Virus record (IMG/VR): IMGVR_UViG_3300027861_004723
DNA length: 46,900 bases
Strand: one strand, 5' to 3'
Source: an uncultured virus (IMG/VR IMGVR_UViG_3300027861_004723)
Taxonomy: Duplodnaviria > Heunggongvirae > Uroviricota > Caudoviricetes
Below the pieces are notes generated by a model, which was not told the origin of the DNA, did no database searches, and saw only the letters and a list, made by a program, of their open reading frames with translations. The position numbers and the translations under genes are program-made. This document shows positions 4,390-40,148 of this stretch, piece by piece. Position 1 is the first letter of the stretch. Every line of letters starts with the position of its first letter.

Positions 4390-4464
4390 CCCTTGCTGGG
4401 CTTGCTGCATCCCTAGACAGTAACCGGCTACCATGCTACCTTATGGGCAGTGAAGGGAACGACG

Positions 4465-5097
4465 ATGCCTAGCCTAAAGCACTATCCTGACAAACCCTGG
4501 GAGCGTGGCCCCAAAGACATTCCGTCGCTTGATAACGGCCAAAACATCTGTCAACAAAAGACCGATGGTTGGCGTTGTGAGCTACTGAAAAGCCGTGGGA
4601 TATACGCCATTAGCCGCCATAACAAGCCGCTAGACCTAGAGCCGCACATCCGCGAGCAAGTTGACCTTTTACTGGAGGAGGTTCCAGACCGTAGCCAGTT
4701 TGATGGTGAGTGGCTATCACGCCGGGAAGCTACCAACAAAAAGGCTAAACCCCGTTTGGTACTTTTCGACACTATCCGCCTAAAGAAGCGGTGGAACCTA
4801 CTACTCCCATACCAAGAGCGGTTAGCGCAGCTAGAGGAAATCTTCGCTCGCGCTATTGATAAGCACGGGGCTGATGCTTTTACCAGTGTTATGCTCCCAG
4901 AAACAGCACTTGATGGTGAGTTTCTTAGCTTTTATGAAGCACAAAAGGTGTTACCACACAGCGAGGGCGTTGTTATCAAGCGCAAGAATAGCACACTGGT
5001 AGGCGACCGTAACAAGAGTGTTAAAAACGCTAACTGGGCTAAAGTCCGCTACCGTGCAGCTAGCAGTGGTAGTATGACAATGGACCACTTGAGGTAA
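4465..5097 (+). CDS. ATP-dependent ligase-like nucleotidyltransferase (adenylation domain only)
   Basis: Motifs I KTDGWR, III FDGE, IIIa LFD, IV EGVVIK, V WAKVR; no room for an OB domain. Confidence 0.8.
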   Translation: MPSLKHYPDKPWERGPKDIPSLDNGQNICQQKTDGWRCELLKSRGIYAISRHNKPLDLEPHIREQVDLLLEEVPDRSQFDGEWLSRREATNKKAKPRLVLFDTIRLKKRWNLLLPYQERLAQLEEIFARAIDKHGADAFTSVMLPETALDGEFLSFYEAQKVLPHSEGVVIKRKNSTLVGDRNKSVKNANWAKVRYRAASSGSMTMDHLR

Positions 5098-8462: not shown

Positions 8463-8863
8463 CTGCGTCCCTTGACAGGAAATTGAGAGCAGACTACAAT
8501 GCTCTCAACAACGAAACGAAGCTGGTACTTAAGGTGTGATAGCTAAACGGCAATCAAAAGGTTGCCCATGATTCGGACCCGAATTGGAGAATTGCGAAAC
8601 CTCAAAAGGGTGGGAAGCCCTTAAAACATTGATTCGCCCTGCCCGTTGCTGGACCCAGCACGGGCTTAGGGTGATGCCGCTAATAGGTAATAAATAACAA
8701 CAACTACAAACATTTAATAAAGTAACAATTTTAGTTTAGTAATATGTCCCGACGCTCCTGCGGCCACCATGCCGTAAGGAGCTTAGGGCGATGTATAAGA
8801 AACGCTACCCGTTGACAGTAACCGGCTACCCGGTTAAGATGCAATCTCAACAGAGGGCACAAA

Positions 8864-9301
8864 ATGGCAACTCGTGAAGTAGTGCTTGTAGTGGAACAGA
8901 GCGTTCACTATTACATTGAAGACCCAGAGGGTACCTTGACCGAAGCAGAGGTCGTAGCAGCGGCTACGGAAAAGCTAGATAAAGGCGAGCCCGATGAGAA
9001 TCCAGCTAGCGGCTGGCTAAAGGTCACCTCCTGGGCGGTTTCGGGGGTTCCCTTGGACCCGACTGCAGCCAAGACCAGAATGTTAAGTCCAGCGGAACTA
9101 CTAATCTACTTTGAAAGACCGGGATGCAAGCCGTTCACGGAAAAAGAACTAGCCGAACGGTGGGATAACTGCTCGATCAAAACAATTCGGCGGAGAAGGT
9201 CGAGTGGTGAAATACGGTCTTTCAAGCCGGGTCGGGATGCTTTGTTCACTCTTGAAGCCGTCTACGAATACGAACAAAAGATGAGTGGAAACCCATTATG
9301 A
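8864..9301 (+). CDS. Protein with C-terminal excisionase-like (HTH_17/MerR-type) DNA-binding domain
   Basis: FTEKELAERWDNCSIKTIRRRRSSGEIRSFKPGRDALF pattern. Confidence 0.7.
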   Translation: MATREVVLVVEQSVHYYIEDPEGTLTEAEVVAAATEKLDKGEPDENPASGWLKVTSWAVSGVPLDPTAAKTRMLSPAELLIYFERPGCKPFTEKELAERWDNCSIKTIRRRRSSGEIRSFKPGRDALFTLEAVYEYEQKMSGNPL

Positions 9302-14240: not shown

Positions 14241-14302
14241 ACATCTCTTGACAGGATCTACCTATCCGTGCAAGATACTGCTTGCAACGGCAAGGTAAAG
14301 AT

Positions 14303-15568
14303 ATGATGATTTTTGATGAGCTACAGGCACGGGGACTGATACACCAATTCACTCTCCCTAATCAGCTTAAAATGTGCGAGTTTCTAAGCACTACTCAATG
14401 TCTCTACGCCGGATTTGATCCGTCTGCCCCTAGCCTGCACGTCGGTAACCTGATTCCCCTATTGTGTCTAAAGCGTTTTCAATTAGCTGGACACCGTGTT
14501 ATTGCGCTTGTCGGAGGAGCAACAGGACAGATTGGTGACCCAAGTGGGCGATCCAGTGAGCGTAATTTATCCAGCTTGGACCTTGTTCAAGTTAATAAAA
14601 CAAAGATCATGGGGCAGCTTAGTAGCCTGCTGGGATCTGGAGAGTTAGTAGACAATCTCGACTGGCTAAAGGATATGTCTTTACTAGATTTCTTGCGTGA
14701 CATTGGTAAGCATTTTACCGTGAATACCATGCTTCGCAAAGATTCGGTAAAGAACCGTCTTGTGAGGGACGGAGACGGGCTCTCTTTTACAGAGTTTAGT
14801 TACAGCTTACTACAAGGGTTTGATTTCCTACACCTTTCTCGCACACGAGGAGTCAGCATACAACTTGGTGGTAGTGACCAATGGGGTAATATCACGGCTG
14901 GTACGGATCTTGTCCGTCGAGCGGATAACAAGACTGTACATGGTATTACTTTCCCGTTGCTCACTAACAGCGACGGTTCCAAGTTTGGTAAGAGCGCAGG
15001 AAATGCGATCTGGCTCGACCCAAAACTTACTAGCCCCTTTGATTTCAGACAGTTTTGGGTTAATACTGACGATGCTGATGTGATAGCAAGGCTTCGCCTG
15101 TTCACCTTTTTGTCTTTAGACGAAATCAATGAGTTTGTTGCTGGGCTAAAAACAAACCCAGGAGCAGCCCAACGAAAGTTGGCTAGAGAAATGACTGTGT
15201 TGGTTCACGGCACAGAAATTGCTGATAGTGTTGAACAAGCAGCGGATGCACTCTTTCGGAATGATCCTACATCAATCCCGGCAGCAGTCTTAGTAGACGC
15301 TCTAAAAGAAGCACCGAAAACTGTTATCAGCAGGGCTGCACTAGAGGCTGGGATTCCCCTTATTGATCTGATAGTTAAGACCGTTCATAAAGGCGCACAG
15401 GCTCGTGGTAAGGCCAGACGTGAGATTGAGGTAGACAAATGCATCTCCCTCAATGGTGTTCGACGGGTGAGCGGCCCAGCGCAAGTAGGCTTGGCGGATC
15501 TGTTGCATGATAGATTCTTAGTTATTAAGAAAGGTAAGCGTTCTTTCTTCTTGGTGGAGGTGTCTTGA
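14303..15568 (+). CDS. tyrS: Tyrosyl-tRNA synthetase (bacterial type)
   Basis: YAGFDPSAPSLHVGN (HIGH), GGATGQIGDPSG, QLGGSDQWGNI, KFGKS (KMSKS), C-terminal S4-like domain ending KKGKR. Confidence 0.97.
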   Translation: MMIFDELQARGLIHQFTLPNQLKMCEFLSTTQCLYAGFDPSAPSLHVGNLIPLLCLKRFQLAGHRVIALVGGATGQIGDPSGRSSERNLSSLDLVQVNKTKIMGQLSSLLGSGELVDNLDWLKDMSLLDFLRDIGKHFTVNTMLRKDSVKNRLVRDGDGLSFTEFSYSLLQGFDFLHLSRTRGVSIQLGGSDQWGNITAGTDLVRRADNKTVHGITFPLLTNSDGSKFGKSAGNAIWLDPKLTSPFDFRQFWVNTDDADVIARLRLFTFLSLDEINEFVAGLKTNPGAAQRKLAREMTVLVHGTEIADSVEQAADALFRNDPTSIPAAVLVDALKEAPKTVISRAALEAGIPLIDLIVKTVHKGAQARGKARREIEVDKCISLNGVRRVSGPAQVGLADLLHDRFLVIKKGKRSFFLVEVS

Positions 15569-17576: not shown

Positions 17577-17648
17577 CAGCAATGCTATGCTGATCTGCAT
17601 ATCTTTACAGATCAGCAATGCTATGCTGATCTGCATATCTTTACAGAT
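17577..17648. repeat. Exact 36-bp tandem duplication
   Basis: CAGCAATGCTATGCTGATCTGCATATCTTTACAGAT x2, spanning a stop codon and a -35 box. Confidence 0.95.
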
Positions 17649-17682
17649 AGAGGATGTAAAGCTATACTGTTCTAACAAACGA

Positions 17683-17753
17683 CGCGCAGAAGTCTACGAG
17701 TACGACGCTGGCCTCATAAACCAGAGAATCGGGTGCGACTCCCGGCTGCGCTA
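17683..17753 (+). tRNA. tRNA-Met(CAT), divergent, initiator-like 1:72 mismatch
   Basis: Acceptor CGCGCAG/CTGCGCT, D GTC/GAC, loop CTCATAA, T arm TCGGG-TGCGACT-CCCGG; own promoter 17640-17668; no CCA. Confidence 0.7.
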
Positions 17754-24187: not shown

Positions 24188-24306
24188 AGAATGGTGAGGT
24201 AATTTAGCAACCCTACTGGCGATCTGCTCTGCAAAGTAGTGAACTGGTGAGTTTTGATGATTGCAGCATTATCAAACTGTTGCGGGTGCAAGTCCCGTCC
24301 ATTCTC
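24188..24306 (+). ncRNA. Enlarged tRNA-Cys-like RNA (119 nt), double-length anticodon arm and ~11-bp variable arm
   Basis: Acceptor AGAATGG/CCATTCT, D GGT/ACC, loop CTGCAA(A), T arm GCGGG-TGCAAGT-CCCGT. Confidence 0.7.
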
Positions 24307-24859
24307 ATACACTTACAGAAATTCAAACGATGAAGTTTTTCTTTAGCGCCCCGTGGTGGTACATTGTTTTTGCACCGCTCTTTTGGGCTGTATTTGCCCC
24401 ATTCTTGAGCCTTTGCATTGTGCTGTGGCCCAAGCTATCATTAAGCTGGGTCGAGCGTAAAGAGCTTGTTGCAACGCTCTGGTGGATTCCTACTATTGTG
24501 CTGCTGGCTACTAGGTAGCCGATTATCTGCCTCTAAGCTAGGGTATCTTGACAGCTATCCTGAGCCGTGTTACCTTATGGGCAGTGAAGGGAACGGCATG
24601 ACCGAGAAACGCACTGTCAGGAGGCTGGCAAAGACAATTCGCTCTGAGACGGGAGTGCCACTGGCCCATGCCAACATTATCGCCCGATTCGTCTGGGCGT
24701 GGGACTACTGGTCCTTAAAAGAGCATGATGTGGTCGGAAAACACTGCACAGTGTCCCGTAGCAGTTGTACTTGCTGCGGAATGACGGAGCTTACTGTTAG
24801 TGGCCCCAGAGGCACTTTCTATAAACCATAGAGGAAAACAGAAAAAATACAAAATACAC

Positions 24860-25001
24860 GATTGGATAGCTTAGTTGGCAGAGCGTCGAGACGTGCTCTA
24901 TCATGCGGAGAAAAGGTTGATGCGGCCACCACGCCATAGATACCAAATCTACAAAGATAGTAATAAATCTCGGAGGTAGGGTTCAAATCCCGTTCCAATC
25001 A
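24860..25001 (+). ncRNA. tRNA-scaffold RNA (142 nt), anticodon loop replaced by a ~77-nt domain
   Basis: Acceptor GATTGGA/TCCAATC, TAGCTTAGTTGGCAGAGC D arm, stem TCGAGA/TCTCGG, GGGTTCAAATCCC T arm. Confidence 0.75.
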
Positions 25002-25023
25002 CCTACACCTTGGAGTAATCTCG

Positions 25024-25230
25024 TTAAGCTGTTAGTGTTTTCAGCTTATCGTGTGCTCCCAGCAAATCCATAGCAAAGAAGGCCAGTGCTCCTGTAGCAA
25101 AGTAGAAAACCGGCTTAGGCGGGTAAAAATCAGTTACTTTGTAGGCATATTGCAGACCGAGCGCAGAGATTAGTGTTGCAGTACCGACTGCTGCTGTCCC
25201 GATAAGTGTGCTCTTAATGTTCATACCCAC
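25024..25230 (-). CDS. Small two-TM membrane protein on the opposite strand
   Basis: Two hydrophobic segments; fills the gap between + strand units. Confidence 0.65.
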   Translation of the reverse strand: MGMNIKSTLIGTAAVGTATLISALGLQYAYKVTDFYPPKPVFYFATGALAFFAMDLLGAHDKLKTLTA

Positions 25231-25773
25231 AGTCTATCAAATAATCCTTACTTTGGTCTAACCTTTCTTGGCACCCCTTGACAGCAGATACGGCATACAG
25301 TAGGATGCACTTGATTGACAACACGATCTGGAGCACACAGAATGTCTGATAAGCAAGATAAGCGGGAAGGGTTCGAGTTTGAGGCAATCGTTATTTTGCC
25401 TAAGAGCGCGAGCCCAGCTTTGAGAAAGACCTGTATTGATCTTTTTGATGCGATGGTGGTTTTTGCGCGTAACCCGTCAGAGTTCAACTTTGCGCTGCTA
25501 CGCGATCTGGAATATGCTTATCGGAATGGGATTGACGAGGCGCACAAGGCGCTCTTTCAAGATACCGCTGAATCCATGCCCGACCAAAATCTGCGTGGAC
25601 CATCGGATAGTGATACTCCTGCGTGGGAAAAGGAATTGAGCTTTCCCCCAAACCAAGCAGAGTTTGTCGGGTGCTGCCAGGCAAAGGGCTGTATTAGCCC
25701 CCCAATGTCAAGTGATTATTGCTGGTGCTTCCGGCATCTACCTACCACCCCCGATACTCGCAAGTAGAAACCA

Positions 25774-34190: not shown

Positions 34191-35345
34191 ATGCCCCTAA
34201 ATGTACAGAAGTATCTGCGTGATGGGGGCACCCTAGAGGGGCTTACTGAGGATCTTGGTATCCGCATCCATCATCATTCCGAGCTACCCCTTGTGGGATT
34301 TAGCTATAGCCAAATCGACAGCCCTAAGACGAACAACATCGTACGTGAGAGCCGGGGCCTTACTCTGGAAAAAGGCTCCTGGCGTATTGTCGCTAAGGCT
34401 TTCAACCGCTTCTTCCGTCTAGGAGAGTTTGCGGAGGAGTACGAAACTTTCAACTGGAGCGATTTTGATTGCTATACCAAGGCTGATGGTAGCCTAGTAT
34501 TGGTCTATAACTATCAGGGAAAGTGGTATGCCAAGACTCGTGGTAGTTTTGGAGGCGGCGAGGTTCCAAACAATCTGCCTGATTACTCCCCCAGTTTCAG
34601 TGAGTTGTTCTGGGACATCATGAAGGATAAGGGCATTGATCTTAGCAAGGTTTTGGATCCTGCTAACACCTATGTTTTCGAGATGTGCAGCAAGTTTAAC
34701 AAGGTTGTTCGGCTTTACGAAAAGCCTACTGCCTACCTACTTGCTGTTTTTAACAACGAGACTGCAAAGGAGCTTGCTCATGATTCCGTGGATACCCTTT
34801 CTGTGGAAGCTGGCCTGGATCGAGTGGAGCGATTCCACTTTACCTCTCTTGGGGAGGTCCAGGCTTATATGAAGCAGCAAGAGGATGCGGACCCCACTTA
34901 TGAGGGGGTTATCGTTTGCGACGACAAGCTGTTGCGCTTCAAGGTAAAGAGTATCACTTATGATGCCCTGCATCATATGTTTGATAACGGAAACATCTAT
35001 AACCCGAAGCGCCTTGTTCCTTGGGCTCTGAACCCTGATCCTAGCACTCTGCTAGAAACATACCCAGAGGTAAAGGAGCACCTTGATGCTGTTAAGGGCA
35101 AGGTAGACGAGTCTTACGACCAGCTACTAAAGGTCTGGAAAGAGCACCACAAGATTGAGGAGCAACGGACATTCGCCCAGGCTATTAAGGGCAAGACACC
35201 TTTCATGGGTCTACTGTTTGCCCTTCGTAAGAAGACTGGTATCCGAGGCCCTGGCGGGTTCGCCCCTGGCGAACAAACCGAGGAGCAGCTTTATACTCTT
35301 TGGCGTGATAGCGTGGACGGGATTGTTAAGGTTCTGTTCAAGTGA
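34191..35345 (+). CDS. T4 Rnl1-type RNA ligase
   Basis: RESRGL, FNRFF, motif I KADGS, FE, motif IV YEGVIV, motif V KVKSITY; AGGAGG SD. Confidence 0.9.
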   Translation: MPLNVQKYLRDGGTLEGLTEDLGIRIHHHSELPLVGFSYSQIDSPKTNNIVRESRGLTLEKGSWRIVAKAFNRFFRLGEFAEEYETFNWSDFDCYTKADGSLVLVYNYQGKWYAKTRGSFGGGEVPNNLPDYSPSFSELFWDIMKDKGIDLSKVLDPANTYVFEMCSKFNKVVRLYEKPTAYLLAVFNNETAKELAHDSVDTLSVEAGLDRVERFHFTSLGEVQAYMKQQEDADPTYEGVIVCDDKLLRFKVKSITYDALHHMFDNGNIYNPKRLVPWALNPDPSTLLETYPEVKEHLDAVKGKVDESYDQLLKVWKEHHKIEEQRTFAQAIKGKTPFMGLLFALRKKTGIRGPGGFAPGEQTEEQLYTLWRDSVDGIVKVLFK

Positions 35346-36063: not shown

Positions 36064-36933
36064 ATGAAATATACAACCGTAAGAGAGTCCCGACTCGACA
36101 CCACCAAAAAGTTCGTTTTTAGCGTTAAAAATCAAGAAGTTGAGTTTAGCTACATACATAAAAACGATGGTAAAGACATCATCGTTTGCCCTACGCAGAC
36201 ATCCTGCAAAATGGGATGCACCTTTTGCTTCCTAACAGGAATGGATCTTCCTGTAGTCAATCTAACCGCAGAGGATATTGCTACTGGAGTGCAGGCTGTT
36301 GTAGAGAAAGCTGGGTTGCCAGAATCACCGGAATTGCTACTATCCTTTATGGGTGCTGGCGAGCCCCTACTAAACTATAAGCACGTAATAAACGGCTGCA
36401 AAAAGGTGTGCCAGACAGCGCAATCGCACGTCGGATATAAGACTCTGCGTTTCGCTATAGCGACTATGATTCCAAGCTCTGCTTTAATGCGAGGGTTTAC
36501 GGAGGCATCTAAGCTGTTTAATTTTAAGGTCCACTTATCATTGCATAGCCCCTTTGACGACGTTCGCCGCAAGATGATGCCGCAGGCTGTGCTGGTAAAA
36601 GAGAGCCTAGAGCTTCTGCGTGAGCATAAGGCTTATACAGGCCATGATATAGAGATTCATTACACTTTGATTGATGGGTTTAATGATAGAGACGAAGACC
36701 TTGAGAAATTGTTAAAACTTCTTGACGCTGATACTCCCATTAAGTTTCTCGATTTTAAGGCCAAGCCCGGAACAACAATGCGTAAATCTAGTCGTGTAGA
36801 TGAGTTTAGAGATGCACTAGAGAACGCGGGAATCATAACAGAGTTTTACAATCCCCCTGGATCTGATATTGGCAGTAGTTGCGGACAGTTTGAAAGAAAA
36901 GTGATTCCGCTGGCAAAAACTGCTGTATCTTGA
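36064..36933 (+). CDS. RlmN/Cfr-family radical SAM RNA methyltransferase, N-terminally truncated
   Basis: CKMGCTFC, FMGAGEP, LSLH, C-terminal DIGSSCGQ. Confidence 0.88.
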   Translation: MKYTTVRESRLDTTKKFVFSVKNQEVEFSYIHKNDGKDIIVCPTQTSCKMGCTFCFLTGMDLPVVNLTAEDIATGVQAVVEKAGLPESPELLLSFMGAGEPLLNYKHVINGCKKVCQTAQSHVGYKTLRFAIATMIPSSALMRGFTEASKLFNFKVHLSLHSPFDDVRRKMMPQAVLVKESLELLREHKAYTGHDIEIHYTLIDGFNDRDEDLEKLLKLLDADTPIKFLDFKAKPGTTMRKSSRVDEFRDALENAGIITEFYNPPGSDIGSSCGQFERKVIPLAKTAVS

Positions 36934-38678: not shown

Positions 38679-39022
38679 AGGTAGTTACGAGCTTTGAACT
38701 TTGATCTTAGAGACAGGGATTAGTGCCCTGCGTGCTGATTATCCGAGGGTCGGATGGCAAGACGCCACTCTTAATAAGTGGTAACACTGGGTTCGATTCC
38801 CAGTCGGAACAAGTAATCAGTCCAGTGATTGAGAATATGTTATATTAAAGTTATTACTCAACACTGTTAGTTCTTGAAAGTATAAGATATTTACTACTAT
38901 GGACCTAGACTTGACCTAGACTTGCGGCCACCATGCCATTACGCCTAGCATAAAAGACTCCATAATAAATATAGAAATAAGAACTAAGCTCTAAGATCAA
39001 AGTTCAAGGCTCGAAACTACCT
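38679..39022 (+). ncRNA. ~345-nt multibranch RNA closed by a 34-bp inverted repeat, with an embedded tRNA-like (UAA) branch
   Basis: Arms 38679-38712 and 38989-39022 (32/34 Watson-Crick + one G-U); promoter 38628-38656; internal helices tile the interval. Confidence 0.75.
38740..38811 (+). tRNA. Degenerate tRNA-like domain, anticodon TAA, short variable loop
   Basis: D GTC/GAC, CCACT-CTTAATA-AGTGG, CTGGG-TTCGATT-CCCAG; acceptor only 5 bp (TCCGA/TCGGA). Confidence 0.55.
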
Positions 39023-39068: not shown

Positions 39069-40148
39069 ATGCCTGGTATCCTGATTGACTGGAAGCCCAC
39101 CAAGCCGCTTTCCGAGTATTCGGATGTCGAGCTTCGCCAGACTCCCCCTTACAAGCAGATTACTGCTTACGCGCAAATCGATGACCACTATGGTCTGCGG
39201 CTGACGCGAGACTGTATCACACAGTTGGAGCAGGCTCTTGCCGAGGAAGCTAGGATTGAGGATAACTTGAAGGCCGAGCCTGATATTAGTCTTTTTCCGT
39301 ATGAGAACGCTAGTCGCCGCACTAAGCAGCGGTGGAGCGCCCATATCACTGGACGTTGCAACCTTACCTGCCGTTTCTGTCGGCGTGAAGATTCACAGTT
39401 CCATCAGTGGGGGGATACGGGAGATGTCTCTCTGGAGACGGGAGATGTCTCTCTTGCAGGAGCATGTTTGCTTTGCGGGGATCAGAACGCCGCGTTCTGC
39501 GGTGACCATATCACTGGTGTTACTACTACCCAAGCGGCTACTGCCGAGATTGTTGAGGCCGAGGTGGACGAGGTGATGACTGCTGACGAGGTTCTTACCG
39601 AGGTTGTTGCTGACGAACTTTGGGATGCTGCACAGCTTGTTGCTGCTACCAAGGCTAAGGTCGAGATCAATCAGGAGGCTCTGATTCAGGGCATGTTGGT
39701 CTGGCACCGTTTCGGCCACTACCCTTGTATCTTGCTTGAGGATATGAGCAATGGATTCTGGATGATCCAGACTAAGGATGGGGATATTGAGCGCCAGGTG
39801 CGCGGTGCTATCCTGACTCCTGTTAAGCCGAACATCTTCAAGCGGGTTTGGGCTAGCCTCAAGCATCGCAAAGAGGAGAAGCAGGAGCAAGCTGCGGAAG
39901 CGGCTTTCCAGACTGCTAGGTTGCCACGCTCTGCTCATGGTGGTGGTAGTATTGTCCTCCAAGGCGGTTATGGTGGCACCACCGGAAACAGTGGGCCTGT
40001 AACTGTCAAGGGTGGTAACAACACCGAAGCCAAGCCGAAGCCAAGCCGGAAGATGCGTTATGCACTTTTGGCGGTCACTGCAACGGCTTTGACTGCGGTT
40101 GCTGTGCAACCCGAGCTTCTCGCCACCCTTACCAGTCTTATCTGGTAA
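39069..40148 (+). CDS. Multi-domain hypothetical protein: Zn-finger-like region, acidic linker, C-terminal membrane anchor
   Basis: 359-aa ORF; CxxC motifs; internal GDVSL repeat; hydrophobic C-terminus. Confidence 0.8.
   Translation: MPGILIDWKPTKPLSEYSDVELRQTPPYKQITAYAQIDDHYGLRLTRDCITQLEQALAEEARIEDNLKAEPDISLFPYENASRRTKQRWSAHITGRCNLTCRFCRREDSQFHQWGDTGDVSLETGDVSLAGACLLCGDQNAAFCGDHITGVTTTQAATAEIVEAEVDEVMTADEVLTEVVADELWDAAQLVAATKAKVEINQEALIQGMLVWHRFGHYPCILLEDMSNGFWMIQTKDGDIERQVRGAILTPVKPNIFKRVWASLKHRKEEKQEQAAEAAFQTARLPRSAHGGGSIVLQGGYGGTTGNSGPVTVKGGNNTEAKPKPSRKMRYALLAVTATALTAVAVQPELLATLTSLIW

What the first reader, a model, noticed from the sequence alone, without database searches (positions are those of the whole stretch)
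24860..25001. tRNA body with a 77-nt multi-hairpin in place of the anticodon loop
Seen: textbook 5' half (TAGCTTAGTTGGCAGAGC) and T loop. The insert is closed by CTATC/GATAG and holds the CACCAC hairpin and TAGAT/ATCTA. Removing it does not restore a Y32-U33 loop. This is the same design as engineered tRNA-scaffold expression vectors.
Basis: partly seen in the sequence, partly recalled or inferred. Interest (0 to 1): 0.75.

Follow-up and report, generated by a model that had tools for sequence, protein, structure and literature searches.

The report
Insert-split tRNA-like gene, marine megaphage
A very large marine phage carries a gene with the body of a tRNA whose anticodon loop is replaced by about 76 extra bases, so it probably cannot read codons, and whether the RNA is a working tRNA look-alike or a broken tRNA gene is still open.

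Summary
Window 24860-25001 (+) has a perfect 7-bp acceptor stem, a textbook D arm and T loop, and a 6-bp anticodon stem enclosing about 76 nt instead of a 7-nt loop. ARAGORN finds it only in intron mode. Rfam finds nothing. No single excision gives an anticodon stem plus U33. The sequence is natural: contigs from four seawater metagenome runs match it exactly, and a neighbouring gene lies on a contig of 599,739 bp. It is not a group I intron and shows no bulge-helix-bulge. It does not match the commonest mini-intron family I found in IMG/VR phage tRNA genes. New here: the insert carries a phage-specific 17-mer (TGCGGCCACCAYGCCRT). This motif occurs three times in the window, and two copies have TAATAAAT exactly 23 nt downstream. 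The T stem has only 3 Watson-Crick pairs and the insert folds no better than shuffles. My best reading (0.4) is an unspliced, non-decoding tRNA-shaped RNA whose body serves as a processing and stability handle for the insert. Rivals are a dead tRNA relic (0.3) and a tRNA spliced by an undescribed route (0.17). No RNA data or diverged relatives were available. Closest known: the 'enigmatic' tRNA introns of Lak megaphages.

The parts
24548..24576 (+). sigma-70-type promoter (TTGACA 24548-24553, 17-nt spacer, TACCTT 24571-24576) of the transcription unit that holds the element
   Evidence: Member of repeat family D2; sequence read. Function inferred from consensus only.
24598..24831 (+). 77-codon ORF upstream of the element, no family match
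   Evidence: The longer TTG-started reading 24466-24831 had no Pfam or PHROG hit. The ATG 24598 start was read by eye.
24860..25001 (+). tRNA-derived gene: acceptor 24860-66/24994-25000, D arm 24867-84, anticodon stem 24886-91/24968-73, T arm 24977-93, A73 at 25001
24892..24967 (+). 76-nt insert in place of the anticodon loop (ARAGORN: 69-nt intron 24892-24960 plus loop TAATAAA 24961-24967)
24921..24937 (+). copy B of the phage-specific 17-mer TGCGGCCACCAYGCCRT, which holds the CACCAC hairpin
   Evidence: 3 exact copies in the window; 0 of 100 shuffles reach 3 even with up to 3 mismatches.
24961..24968 (+). TAATAAAT box 23 nt after the 17-mer, the same spacing as at copy C (38963-38970)
   Evidence: coordinates read.
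8759..8775 (+). copy A of the 17-mer, in an intergenic region inside an 11-bp hairpin, 38 nt upstream of the TTGACA of the promoter of the gene at 8864
   Evidence: D1 copy 8809-8853; -24.7 kcal/mol, z -4.56.
38923..38939 (+). copy C of the 17-mer, 111 nt downstream of the odd tRNA-like gene 38739-38812 and upstream of the gene at 39069
24875..24904 (+). promoter-like site spanning the D loop and the start of the insert (TTGGCA, 18 nt, TATCAT; 10 of 12 matches)
   Evidence: 4 sites found in the region against 1.3 expected. A consensus match only.
24920..24979 (+). 19-codon ORF inside the insert (MRPPRHRYQIYKDSNKSRR*) preceded by GGAGAAAAGG; probably fortuitous
   Evidence: Read by eye; not tested.
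25024..25224 (-). convergent 66-codon ORF, hydrophobic, whose stop codon lies 22 nt beyond the element's 3' end
25278..25306 (+). next sigma-70-type promoter (TTGACA, 17 nt, TAGGAT), for the gene starting at 25342

Best explanation
This is a tRNA-derived gene of a very large marine phage (at least 600 kb) that no longer encodes a codon-reading tRNA. About 76 nt occupy the anticodon loop. They include the phage's own two-box motif (the 17-mer TGCGGCCACCACGCCAT, then TAATAAAT 23 nt later). I think the RNA is made unspliced. It would be transcribed with the 77-codon ORF from the sigma-70-type promoter at 24548. RNase P would then cut it at G24860, its 3' end would be trimmed after A25001, and CCA would be added, giving a tRNA-shaped RNA of about 142-145 nt. 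In this reading the tRNA body is a processing and stability handle. The long arm displays the 17-nt motif, which acts as a binding site or decoy for a phage or host factor. Shown: the anatomy; the absence of any canonical anticodon loop; the natural origin; the repeated motif. Inferred: transcription, processing, lack of splicing and any function of the RNA.
For: The acceptor stem (7/7), D arm, T loop and a 6-bp anticodon stem are intact. The insert sits exactly in the loop and is closed by CTATC/GATAG, so the arm can continue the anticodon helix. That placement is expected for an RNA-level design and is unlikely for a random DNA insertion.

No single excision yields a stem plus U33 (0 solutions). 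Rfam's tRNA model does not see the element, although it spanned 16 of 20 insert-bearing IMG/VR phage tRNA genes at 42-56 bits.

The 17-mer occurs 3 times exactly in 46.9 kb, always on the gene strand and always in non-coding stretches. Copies B and C share TAATAAAT at identical spacing, while I counted by eye only 5 of 23 identical spacer bases. So the boxes, not the whole segment, are kept. Copy C lies next to another aberrant tRNA-like gene.

Precedent within my own data: L160, L223 and L155 are tRNA bodies without a usable anticodon arm. Their closing stem changes in a compensatory way (CACCC/GGGTG, CTCCC/GGGAG, CGTCC/GGACG).

The sequence is identical in contigs of 4 of 4 runs laid, with no insert-free joint.
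Against: There is no RNA evidence at all and there are no diverged relatives, so neither expression nor selection is shown. The insert and the whole RNA fold no better than shuffles (z -1.49 and -1.24). The T stem has only 3 Watson-Crick pairs. The junction between the D and anticodon stems and the variable loop are off-canonical, unlike the window's Asn and Lys tRNAs; this could be decay and could weaken RNase P recognition. The hairpin around the 17-mer is strong only in copy A (-24.7 against -9.0 and -4.9 kcal/mol). Copies A and C lie roughly 65-90 nt upstream of likely transcription starts (by eye). Both points fit a DNA-level protein site as well as an RNA motif. 17 of 57 IMG/VR insert-bearing genes also failed my simple excision test, and some of those failures come from the method, so failing it does not prove that the RNA is not spliced.
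Confidence: 0.4

Rival explanations
1. Dead relic. A tRNA gene, possibly once intron-bearing, was disrupted and is decaying. The two-box motif in the insert works, if at all, at the DNA level as a binding site for a transcription factor, as at the two intergenic copies. Any RNA made is a by-product.
For: There is no anticodon loop. The T stem is 3/5, with a 2-nt spacer at position 26 and a short variable loop. Rfam is silent. The two boxes have fixed 23-nt spacing with an unrelated spacer, which is typical of protein-binding DNA sites. Copies A and C sit upstream of sigma-70-like promoters. Hairpin strength is not conserved. The insert fold is not significant.
Against: The acceptor stem (7/7), D stem, T loop and 6-bp anticodon stem are untouched. 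The insert lies exactly in the loop and is closed by a 5-bp stem. I found no promoter at the matching distance downstream of copy B (by eye; one search lists none there).
Confidence: 0.3
2. Intron-bearing tRNA of the huge-phage kind. The insert would be cut out by an undescribed nuclease and the halves joined by a phage RNA ligase. The T4 Rnl1-like gene at 34191-35345 is a candidate. The product would be a tRNA with an unusual loop (TAATAAA, A33).
For: ARAGORN in intron mode calls it at default stringency. The phage is huge (longest contig 599,739 bp), and huge phages are reported to carry unexplained tRNA introns (Devoto et al., passages read). In IMG/VR I found 57 distinct insert-bearing tRNA genes, of which 40 of 57 give a canonical arm on excision. 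An Rnl1-like ligase and a second ligase-like ORF are in the window. All 3 near-complete IMG/VR records examined have at least one RNA ligase.
Against: No excision gives U33. ARAGORN's anticodon ATA (Tyr) is, from memory, not known in nature. There is no group I core and no Rfam hit, and I saw no bulge-helix-bulge by eye. No EndA-type endonuclease, RtcB or Pnkp was found among the 108 window ORFs scanned. The covariance model of the main IMG/VR mini-intron family does not match the element. The ligase co-occurrence has no base-rate control.
Confidence: 0.17
3. Embedded mini-gene. The D loop plus the start of the insert form a promoter (TTGGCA, 18 nt, TATCAT). The insert then supplies a ribosome-binding site (GGAGAAAAGG) and a 19-codon basic peptide ORF (24920-24979).
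For: The promoter-like site matches 10 of 12. The RBS-like run and the ATG were read. AAAAGGTTG also precedes another short ORF near 8560 (by eye).
Against: These are consensus matches only. In the other two motif copies the same 17-mer is read in frames that stop after 2 to 8 codons or lack a start codon (by eye). There are no homologues to test for coding.
Confidence: 0.05

Closest known systems
'Enigmatic' introns in tRNA genes of Lak megaphages and of a 596-kb phage genome (Devoto et al., bioRxiv 10.1101/356790 / PMC6784885; passages read, search listing)
   Same: Both are in a huge phage genome. Both have a short non-group-I insert in the anticodon region of an otherwise tRNA-like gene, with identical sequence across samples and an unknown removal mechanism. 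That paper also notes many phage tRNAs of 'unknown or mismatch isotypes'.
   Different: As described there, the Lak introns leave a typable tRNA (Phe, Gly, Thr, Tyr) when removed. Here no excision gives a canonical loop, and the insert carries a repeat of the phage's own intergenic motif. I could not read their Table S6, because bioRxiv supplements are closed and I did not open the PMC supplements, so I made no direct sequence comparison.
Insert-bearing tRNA genes in IMG/VR phage contigs collected here (57 distinct; hairpin-ACAGCAA family, 23 of 57)
   Same: They have the same architecture: a 7/7 acceptor stem across a 36-66-nt insert in the anticodon arm, mostly on large contigs.
   Different: 12 of 57 give a perfect anticodon arm on removal of an insert placed after position 28, and 40 of 57 give a canonical arm. 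Rfam's tRNA model scores 16 of 20 of them. The window element shares no motif with them: blastn-short found only 7-11-nt chance words, and model R1 did not match.
Engineered tRNA-scaffold RNAs (anticodon stem-loop replaced by a cargo RNA; recalled, no paper read)
   Same: The cargo sits in place of the anticodon loop, closed by a stem, and the tRNA body supplies processing and stability.
   Different: This sequence is natural. The body is imperfect (T stem 3/5), and no evidence exists that it is processed or stable.
Group I introns in bacterial and phage tRNA anticodon loops (Rfam Intron_gpI)
   Same: The insert is in the anticodon loop of a tRNA gene.
   Different: At 69-77 nt it is far below the roughly 200 nt or more of the smallest group I introns (recalled). 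There is no Rfam match at E<=10.
YrlA / Y RNA-like tRNA mimics (Rfam RF02553)
   Same: It is a non-decoding RNA with a tRNA-like module found in bacteria and phages.
   Different: There is no Rfam match. In YrlA the 5' and 3' ends lie in the Ro-binding stem rather than in the acceptor stem (recalled), whereas here the ends form a normal acceptor stem.

Membership tests
Canonical decoding tRNA (Rfam RF00005) | 7-bp acceptor stem, D arm with G18 G19, T loop TTCRANY | tested here: met
Canonical decoding tRNA (Rfam RF00005) | 5-bp anticodon stem closing a 7-nt loop with U33 and a purine at 37, directly or after one excision | tested here: not met
   0 solutions. The best loops are TAATAAA or AATAAAT, both with A33.
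Canonical decoding tRNA (Rfam RF00005) | Model score at or above the gathering threshold of 29 bits | tested here: not met
   no hit even at E<=10. 16 of 20 IMG/VR insert-bearing genes scored 42-56 bits.
Canonical decoding tRNA (Rfam RF00005) | 5-bp T stem | tested here: not met
   GGG/CCC plus A:G and T:T.
Group I intron in tRNA | Catalytic core (P3-P9), about 200 nt or more, Rfam Intron_gpI match | tested here: not met
   the insert is 69-77 nt.
Archaeal/eukaryal protein-spliced tRNA intron | Bulge-helix-bulge at the exon-intron junctions | tested here: inconclusive
   By eye. The anticodon stem is followed by a 4-nt/7-nt internal loop and then a 5-bp helix, with no 3-4-3 motif. I ran no dedicated BHB scorer.
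Archaeal/eukaryal protein-spliced tRNA intron | EndA-type splicing endonuclease available | tested here: not met
   No PF01974 hit among the 108 window ORFs. 0 of 5 IMG/VR records with insert-bearing tRNAs have one. The rest of this phage genome and its host could not be searched.
IMG/VR phage mini-intron family 1 (hairpin + ACAGCAA) | Covarying 6-bp hairpin followed by CAGCAA (model R1 built from 19 sequences) | tested here: not met
   There is no match in 24860-25001; the three window hits (E 4 to 9) lie elsewhere.
Lak-type 'enigmatic' phage tRNA introns | Short insert in the anticodon region of a tRNA gene of a huge phage, invariant across samples | tested here: met
Lak-type 'enigmatic' phage tRNA introns | Removal leaves a typable tRNA | tested here: not met
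   (no isotype could be assigned).
tmRNA | ARAGORN or Rfam tmRNA call; tag reading frame | tested here: not met
   Position 3:70 is U:A rather than G:U.
Engineered tRNA scaffold | Synthetic origin | tested here: not met
   Present in environmental DNA runs from 2012 to 2019.

The most novel reading that the evidence does not exclude
The megaphage uses a natural tRNA scaffold. The tRNA body would recruit RNase P, 3' trimming and CCA addition to release and stabilise a small RNA whose long arm presents a phage-specific 17-nt motif. That motif would work as a sponge or decoy for a protein that also recognises it in two other non-coding transcripts. If so, the window's other aberrant tRNA-like genes (38739-38812 and 17683-17753) may belong to the same non-decoding repertoire.
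Probability: 0.3. Interest if true: 0.75.

Novelty: new variant of a known kind. Interest (0 to 1): 0.45.

Why it matters
Huge phages carry many tRNA genes that annotation tools call pseudo, mismatched or intron-bearing, and nobody knows how, or whether, the inserts are removed. This case cannot be explained by simple splicing, and its insert is tied to a repeat of the phage's own genome. That makes it a clean test of whether some phage 'tRNAs' are really tRNA-shaped carriers for other RNA functions. If it is only a relic, it is a caution against counting such genes as decoding capacity.

Tried and rejected
- **Close relatives.** INPHARED phages gave no match with blastn or megablast. IMG/VR gave no match to exact 26-27-mers of the element, to the neighbouring ORF or to TyrRS. 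The neighbouring ORF has no homologue other than itself among 5.8 billion proteins. So no covariation test of the element was possible.
- **Exon-based searches.** The 18-mer AGTTGGCAGAGCGTCGAG gave 1 non-tRNA hit in IMG/VR. In GTDB genomes it gave 9 hits, of which 1 is a tRNA, a Gly(TCC). No intron-less relative and no isotype emerged. Comparison with 510 phage tRNAs also gave no isotype.
- **Metagenome scan with the 17-mer.** The rest of that record could not be reached. No whole genome is held for this window.
- **RNA evidence.** No RNA holder was listed, so expression is untested.
- **The 17-mer in IMG/VR.** It gave 27 single hits, which is about the chance level by my rough estimate.
- **Rejected readings.** A tmRNA reading, a YrlA reading and known ribozymes all had no Rfam hit. 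I first suspected a shared 'GTAGAT' motif with L105 and L064; it turned out to be part of their own closing stems (by eye).
- **Other checks that led nowhere.** Low-stringency ARAGORN (-ps85) produced 41 mostly spurious calls and was not used. Ligase co-occurrence in 5 IMG/VR records lacks a control set and is only a hint. Earlier notes of this scan held nothing for this genome or this sequence.

Full report
**What is there.** The stretch 24860-25001 (+) is clearly tRNA-derived.
- GATTGGA pairs 7/7 with TCCAATC, followed by discriminator A25001.
- The D arm is TAGCTTAGTTGGCAGAGC and the T loop is TTCAAAT between GGG and CCC.
- TCGAGA (24886-24891) pairs with TCTCGG (24968-24973). This stem encloses 76 nt instead of a 7-nt loop.

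A D-arm/T-loop pattern with an 80-110-nt gap occurs once in the window and in 0 of 100 shuffles. ARAGORN in its default mode lists three other tRNAs and not this one. With introns allowed it calls tRNA-Tyr(ATA) with a 69-nt intron directly after the 5' strand of the anticodon stem and the loop TAATAAA. Rfam finds four tRNAs in the window but nothing here, even at E<=10 on a 451-nt slice.

**Can it be spliced into a tRNA?** I enumerated every single deletion between the D stem and the T arm. I allowed a 1-2-nt spacer, a 3-6-nt variable loop and four T-stem starts, and asked for a 5-bp stem (score >=3.6) with U at loop position 2. There were 0 solutions.

The body is off-canonical in other ways too. 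The T stem has 3 G-C pairs plus A:G and T:T. ARAGORN needs a 2-nt spacer at position 26 and a 4-nt variable loop. The window's Asn and Lys tRNAs are clean by comparison. The fold of the whole RNA (z -1.24) and of the insert with its closing stem (z -1.49; 11 of 200 shuffles fold as well) is not exceptional.

**Is it real and natural?**
- 14 listed DNA runs of seawater or marine metagenomes, from at least 8 studies between 2012 and 2019, hold the surrounding 8-kb stretch. No RNA run was listed.
- I laid contigs of four runs on 24300-25600. Every piece was identical to the window. Two pieces span the whole element (24407-25600 and 24718-25124) and one covers all but its last 16 nt. There was no joint that skips the insert.
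- The downstream ORF has no homologue but itself, and its cluster's longest contig is 599,739 bp. So this is a megaphage.
- The window encodes a TyrRS, a T4 Rnl1-like RNA ligase, a second ligase-like ORF, a radical-SAM protein and an HNH nuclease among mostly orphan ORFs.
- It is full of sigma-70-type promoters of the form TTGACAG-N16-TAAGAT.
- One such promoter (24548-24576) precedes a 77-codon ORF (24598-24831). That ORF ends 28 nt before the element. The next promoter is at 25278. A 66-codon ORF converges from the other strand.

**A new feature of the insert.** The 17-mer TGCGGCCACCAYGCCRT occurs three times exactly in the window, all on the + strand: at 8759, at 24921 (inside the insert) and at 38923. 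In 100 shuffles none reached three matches, even with three mismatches allowed. In IMG/VR it gives only 27 scattered single hits, about the chance level, so it is specific to this phage.
- Copies B (insert) and C (38923) both have TAATAAAT exactly 23 nt downstream, while I count only 5 of 23 identical spacer bases (the spacer count is by eye).
- Copies A and C lie in homologous intergenic regions upstream of promoters.
- Copy C is 111 nt downstream of another aberrant tRNA-like gene.
- The hairpin around the 17-mer is very stable in copy A (-24.7 kcal/mol, z -4.56) but weak in B and C.

So the sequence boxes are conserved, not a fold. This fits a protein recognition site, on DNA or on RNA.

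**The wider class.** Two pattern scans of IMG/VR used the same D arm and T loop.
- The first scan was dominated by tandem tRNAs.
- The second used a gap of 62-92 nt and returned 112 loci. Of these, 66 pair at least 6 of 7 acceptor positions across the insert, giving 57 distinct genes, mostly on large contigs.
- 23 of 57 share a hairpin followed by ACAGCAA. In a gap-free alignment of 19 of them, all 6 hairpin pairs show compensatory changes next to an invariant CAGCAA.
- 12 of 57 give a perfect anticodon arm when an insert placed after position 28 is removed. 40 of 57 give a canonical arm by the same test that the window element fails, and 17 do not.
- Three or four are canonical 37/38 tRNA-Tyr introns, three of them on giant-virus contigs.
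- L160, L223 and L155 are tRNA bodies without a usable anticodon arm whose closing stem covaries.
- Rfam's tRNA model spans 16 of 20 insert-bearing genes tested and finds no ribozyme family in the inserts.
- A covariance model of the hairpin-ACAGCAA motif does not match the window element. blastn-short finds only 7-11-nt chance words between its insert and the 57.
- Among 5 IMG/VR records, Rnl1 is in 1, RtcB in 2, a PF09414 ligase in 3 and an EndA-type endonuclease in 0. There is no base-rate control for these counts.

**Literature.** Six searches found one line of work on this subject. Devoto et al. describe highly conserved, 'enigmatic' introns in Lak megaphage tRNAs. They predict at least four such tRNAs in a 596-kb phage genome that also has many tRNAs of unknown isotype (passages read). 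I found no paper that explains how such inserts are removed. Earlier notes of this scan describe similar oddities in other phages. I used them as leads only.

**Interpretation.** Three facts speak for RNA-level logic rather than a random DNA insertion: the insert sits exactly in the loop, a 5-bp stem closes it, and the acceptor stem, D arm and anticodon stem are intact. The missing U33, the weak T stem and Rfam's silence speak against a decoding tRNA.

My odds are:
- Unspliced, non-decoding tRNA-shaped RNA whose body is a processing and stability handle for an arm that displays the 17-nt motif: 0.40.
- Dead relic whose motif matters only as DNA: 0.30.
- Splicing by an undescribed nuclease plus a phage ligase: 0.17.
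- Embedded promoter plus 19-codon mini-gene: 0.05.
- Something else: the remainder.

None of these could be settled, because there are no RNA data and no diverged relatives.

Noticed in passing
IMG/VR loci L126, L127, L131, L134, L138, L140, L145, L148, L152, L156, L157, L163, L166, L170, L172, L188, L198, L203, L209, L215, L226, L230, L231: A family of 40-60-nt inserts in phage tRNA genes (23 of 57 insert-bearing genes). Each has an A-rich lead, a covarying 6-bp hairpin and then an invariant (A)CAGCAA. The insert often lies inside the 5' strand of the anticodon stem (after position 28), and the 3' exon carries a complete anticodon hairpin (Lys TTT, Asn GTT, Phe GAA, Ile TAT, Pro TGG). There is no Rfam family for it, and I found no paper on it in the searches.
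   Followed up: partly
IMG/VR loci L161, L174, L177, L181, L187, L189, L206, L208, L217, L220, L141 and L105: A second insert type ends in (G)TTACTT or ATACTT just before the 3' exon. It often has a closing stem, an inner GNRA-type hairpin and a purine-rich joining strand.
   Followed up: no
IMG/VR loci L160, L223, L155: These are tRNA bodies (acceptor AGAAGTG/CACTTCT) with no usable anticodon arm. Their closing stem changes in a compensatory way (CACCC/GGGTG, CTCCC/GGGAG, CGTCC/GGACG) around a conserved GAAGGACCG(A/T)AA. They look like a conserved tRNA-scaffolded RNA.
   Followed up: no
window 8759-8775 and 38923-38939: Two further exact copies of the 17-mer TGCGGCCACCAYGCCRT lie in homologous intergenic regions upstream of promoters. 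Copy A sits in an 11-bp hairpin (z -4.56). Its function is unknown.
   Followed up: partly
window 38735-38820: The 'tRNA-Leu(TAA)' gene is only 74 nt, with no long variable arm. It has U at position 37 and a poor outer acceptor stem (Rfam matches model positions 3-68 only, 35 bits). It is flanked by a perfect 7-bp outer stem CTGATTA/TAATCAG. It may be another non-standard tRNA-like RNA.
   Followed up: partly
window 17577-17753: An exact tandem duplication of 36 nt (17577-17612 and 17613-17648) lies just upstream of a low-scoring tRNA with anticodon CAT (17683-17753; 36.7 bits), which ARAGORN does not call.
   Followed up: no
window, e.g. 701, 1008, 2683, 5102, 8809, 15562, 16886, 22206, 31683, 43333: A dense family of sigma-70-type promoters, (C)CCTTGACAG-N16-TAAGAT, has 13 or more copies. 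Conserved leaders (families D2 and D7) lie in front of small orphan ORFs. This looks like an early region read by host RNA polymerase.
   Followed up: no
window 14282-15568, 34191-35345, 4450-5097, 36064-36933: The phage encodes a TyrRS (PHROG E 8e-133), a T4 Rnl1-like RNA ligase, a small ligase/capping-enzyme-like ORF and a radical-SAM protein. This translation and RNA-repair gene set fits a huge phage.
   Followed up: partly
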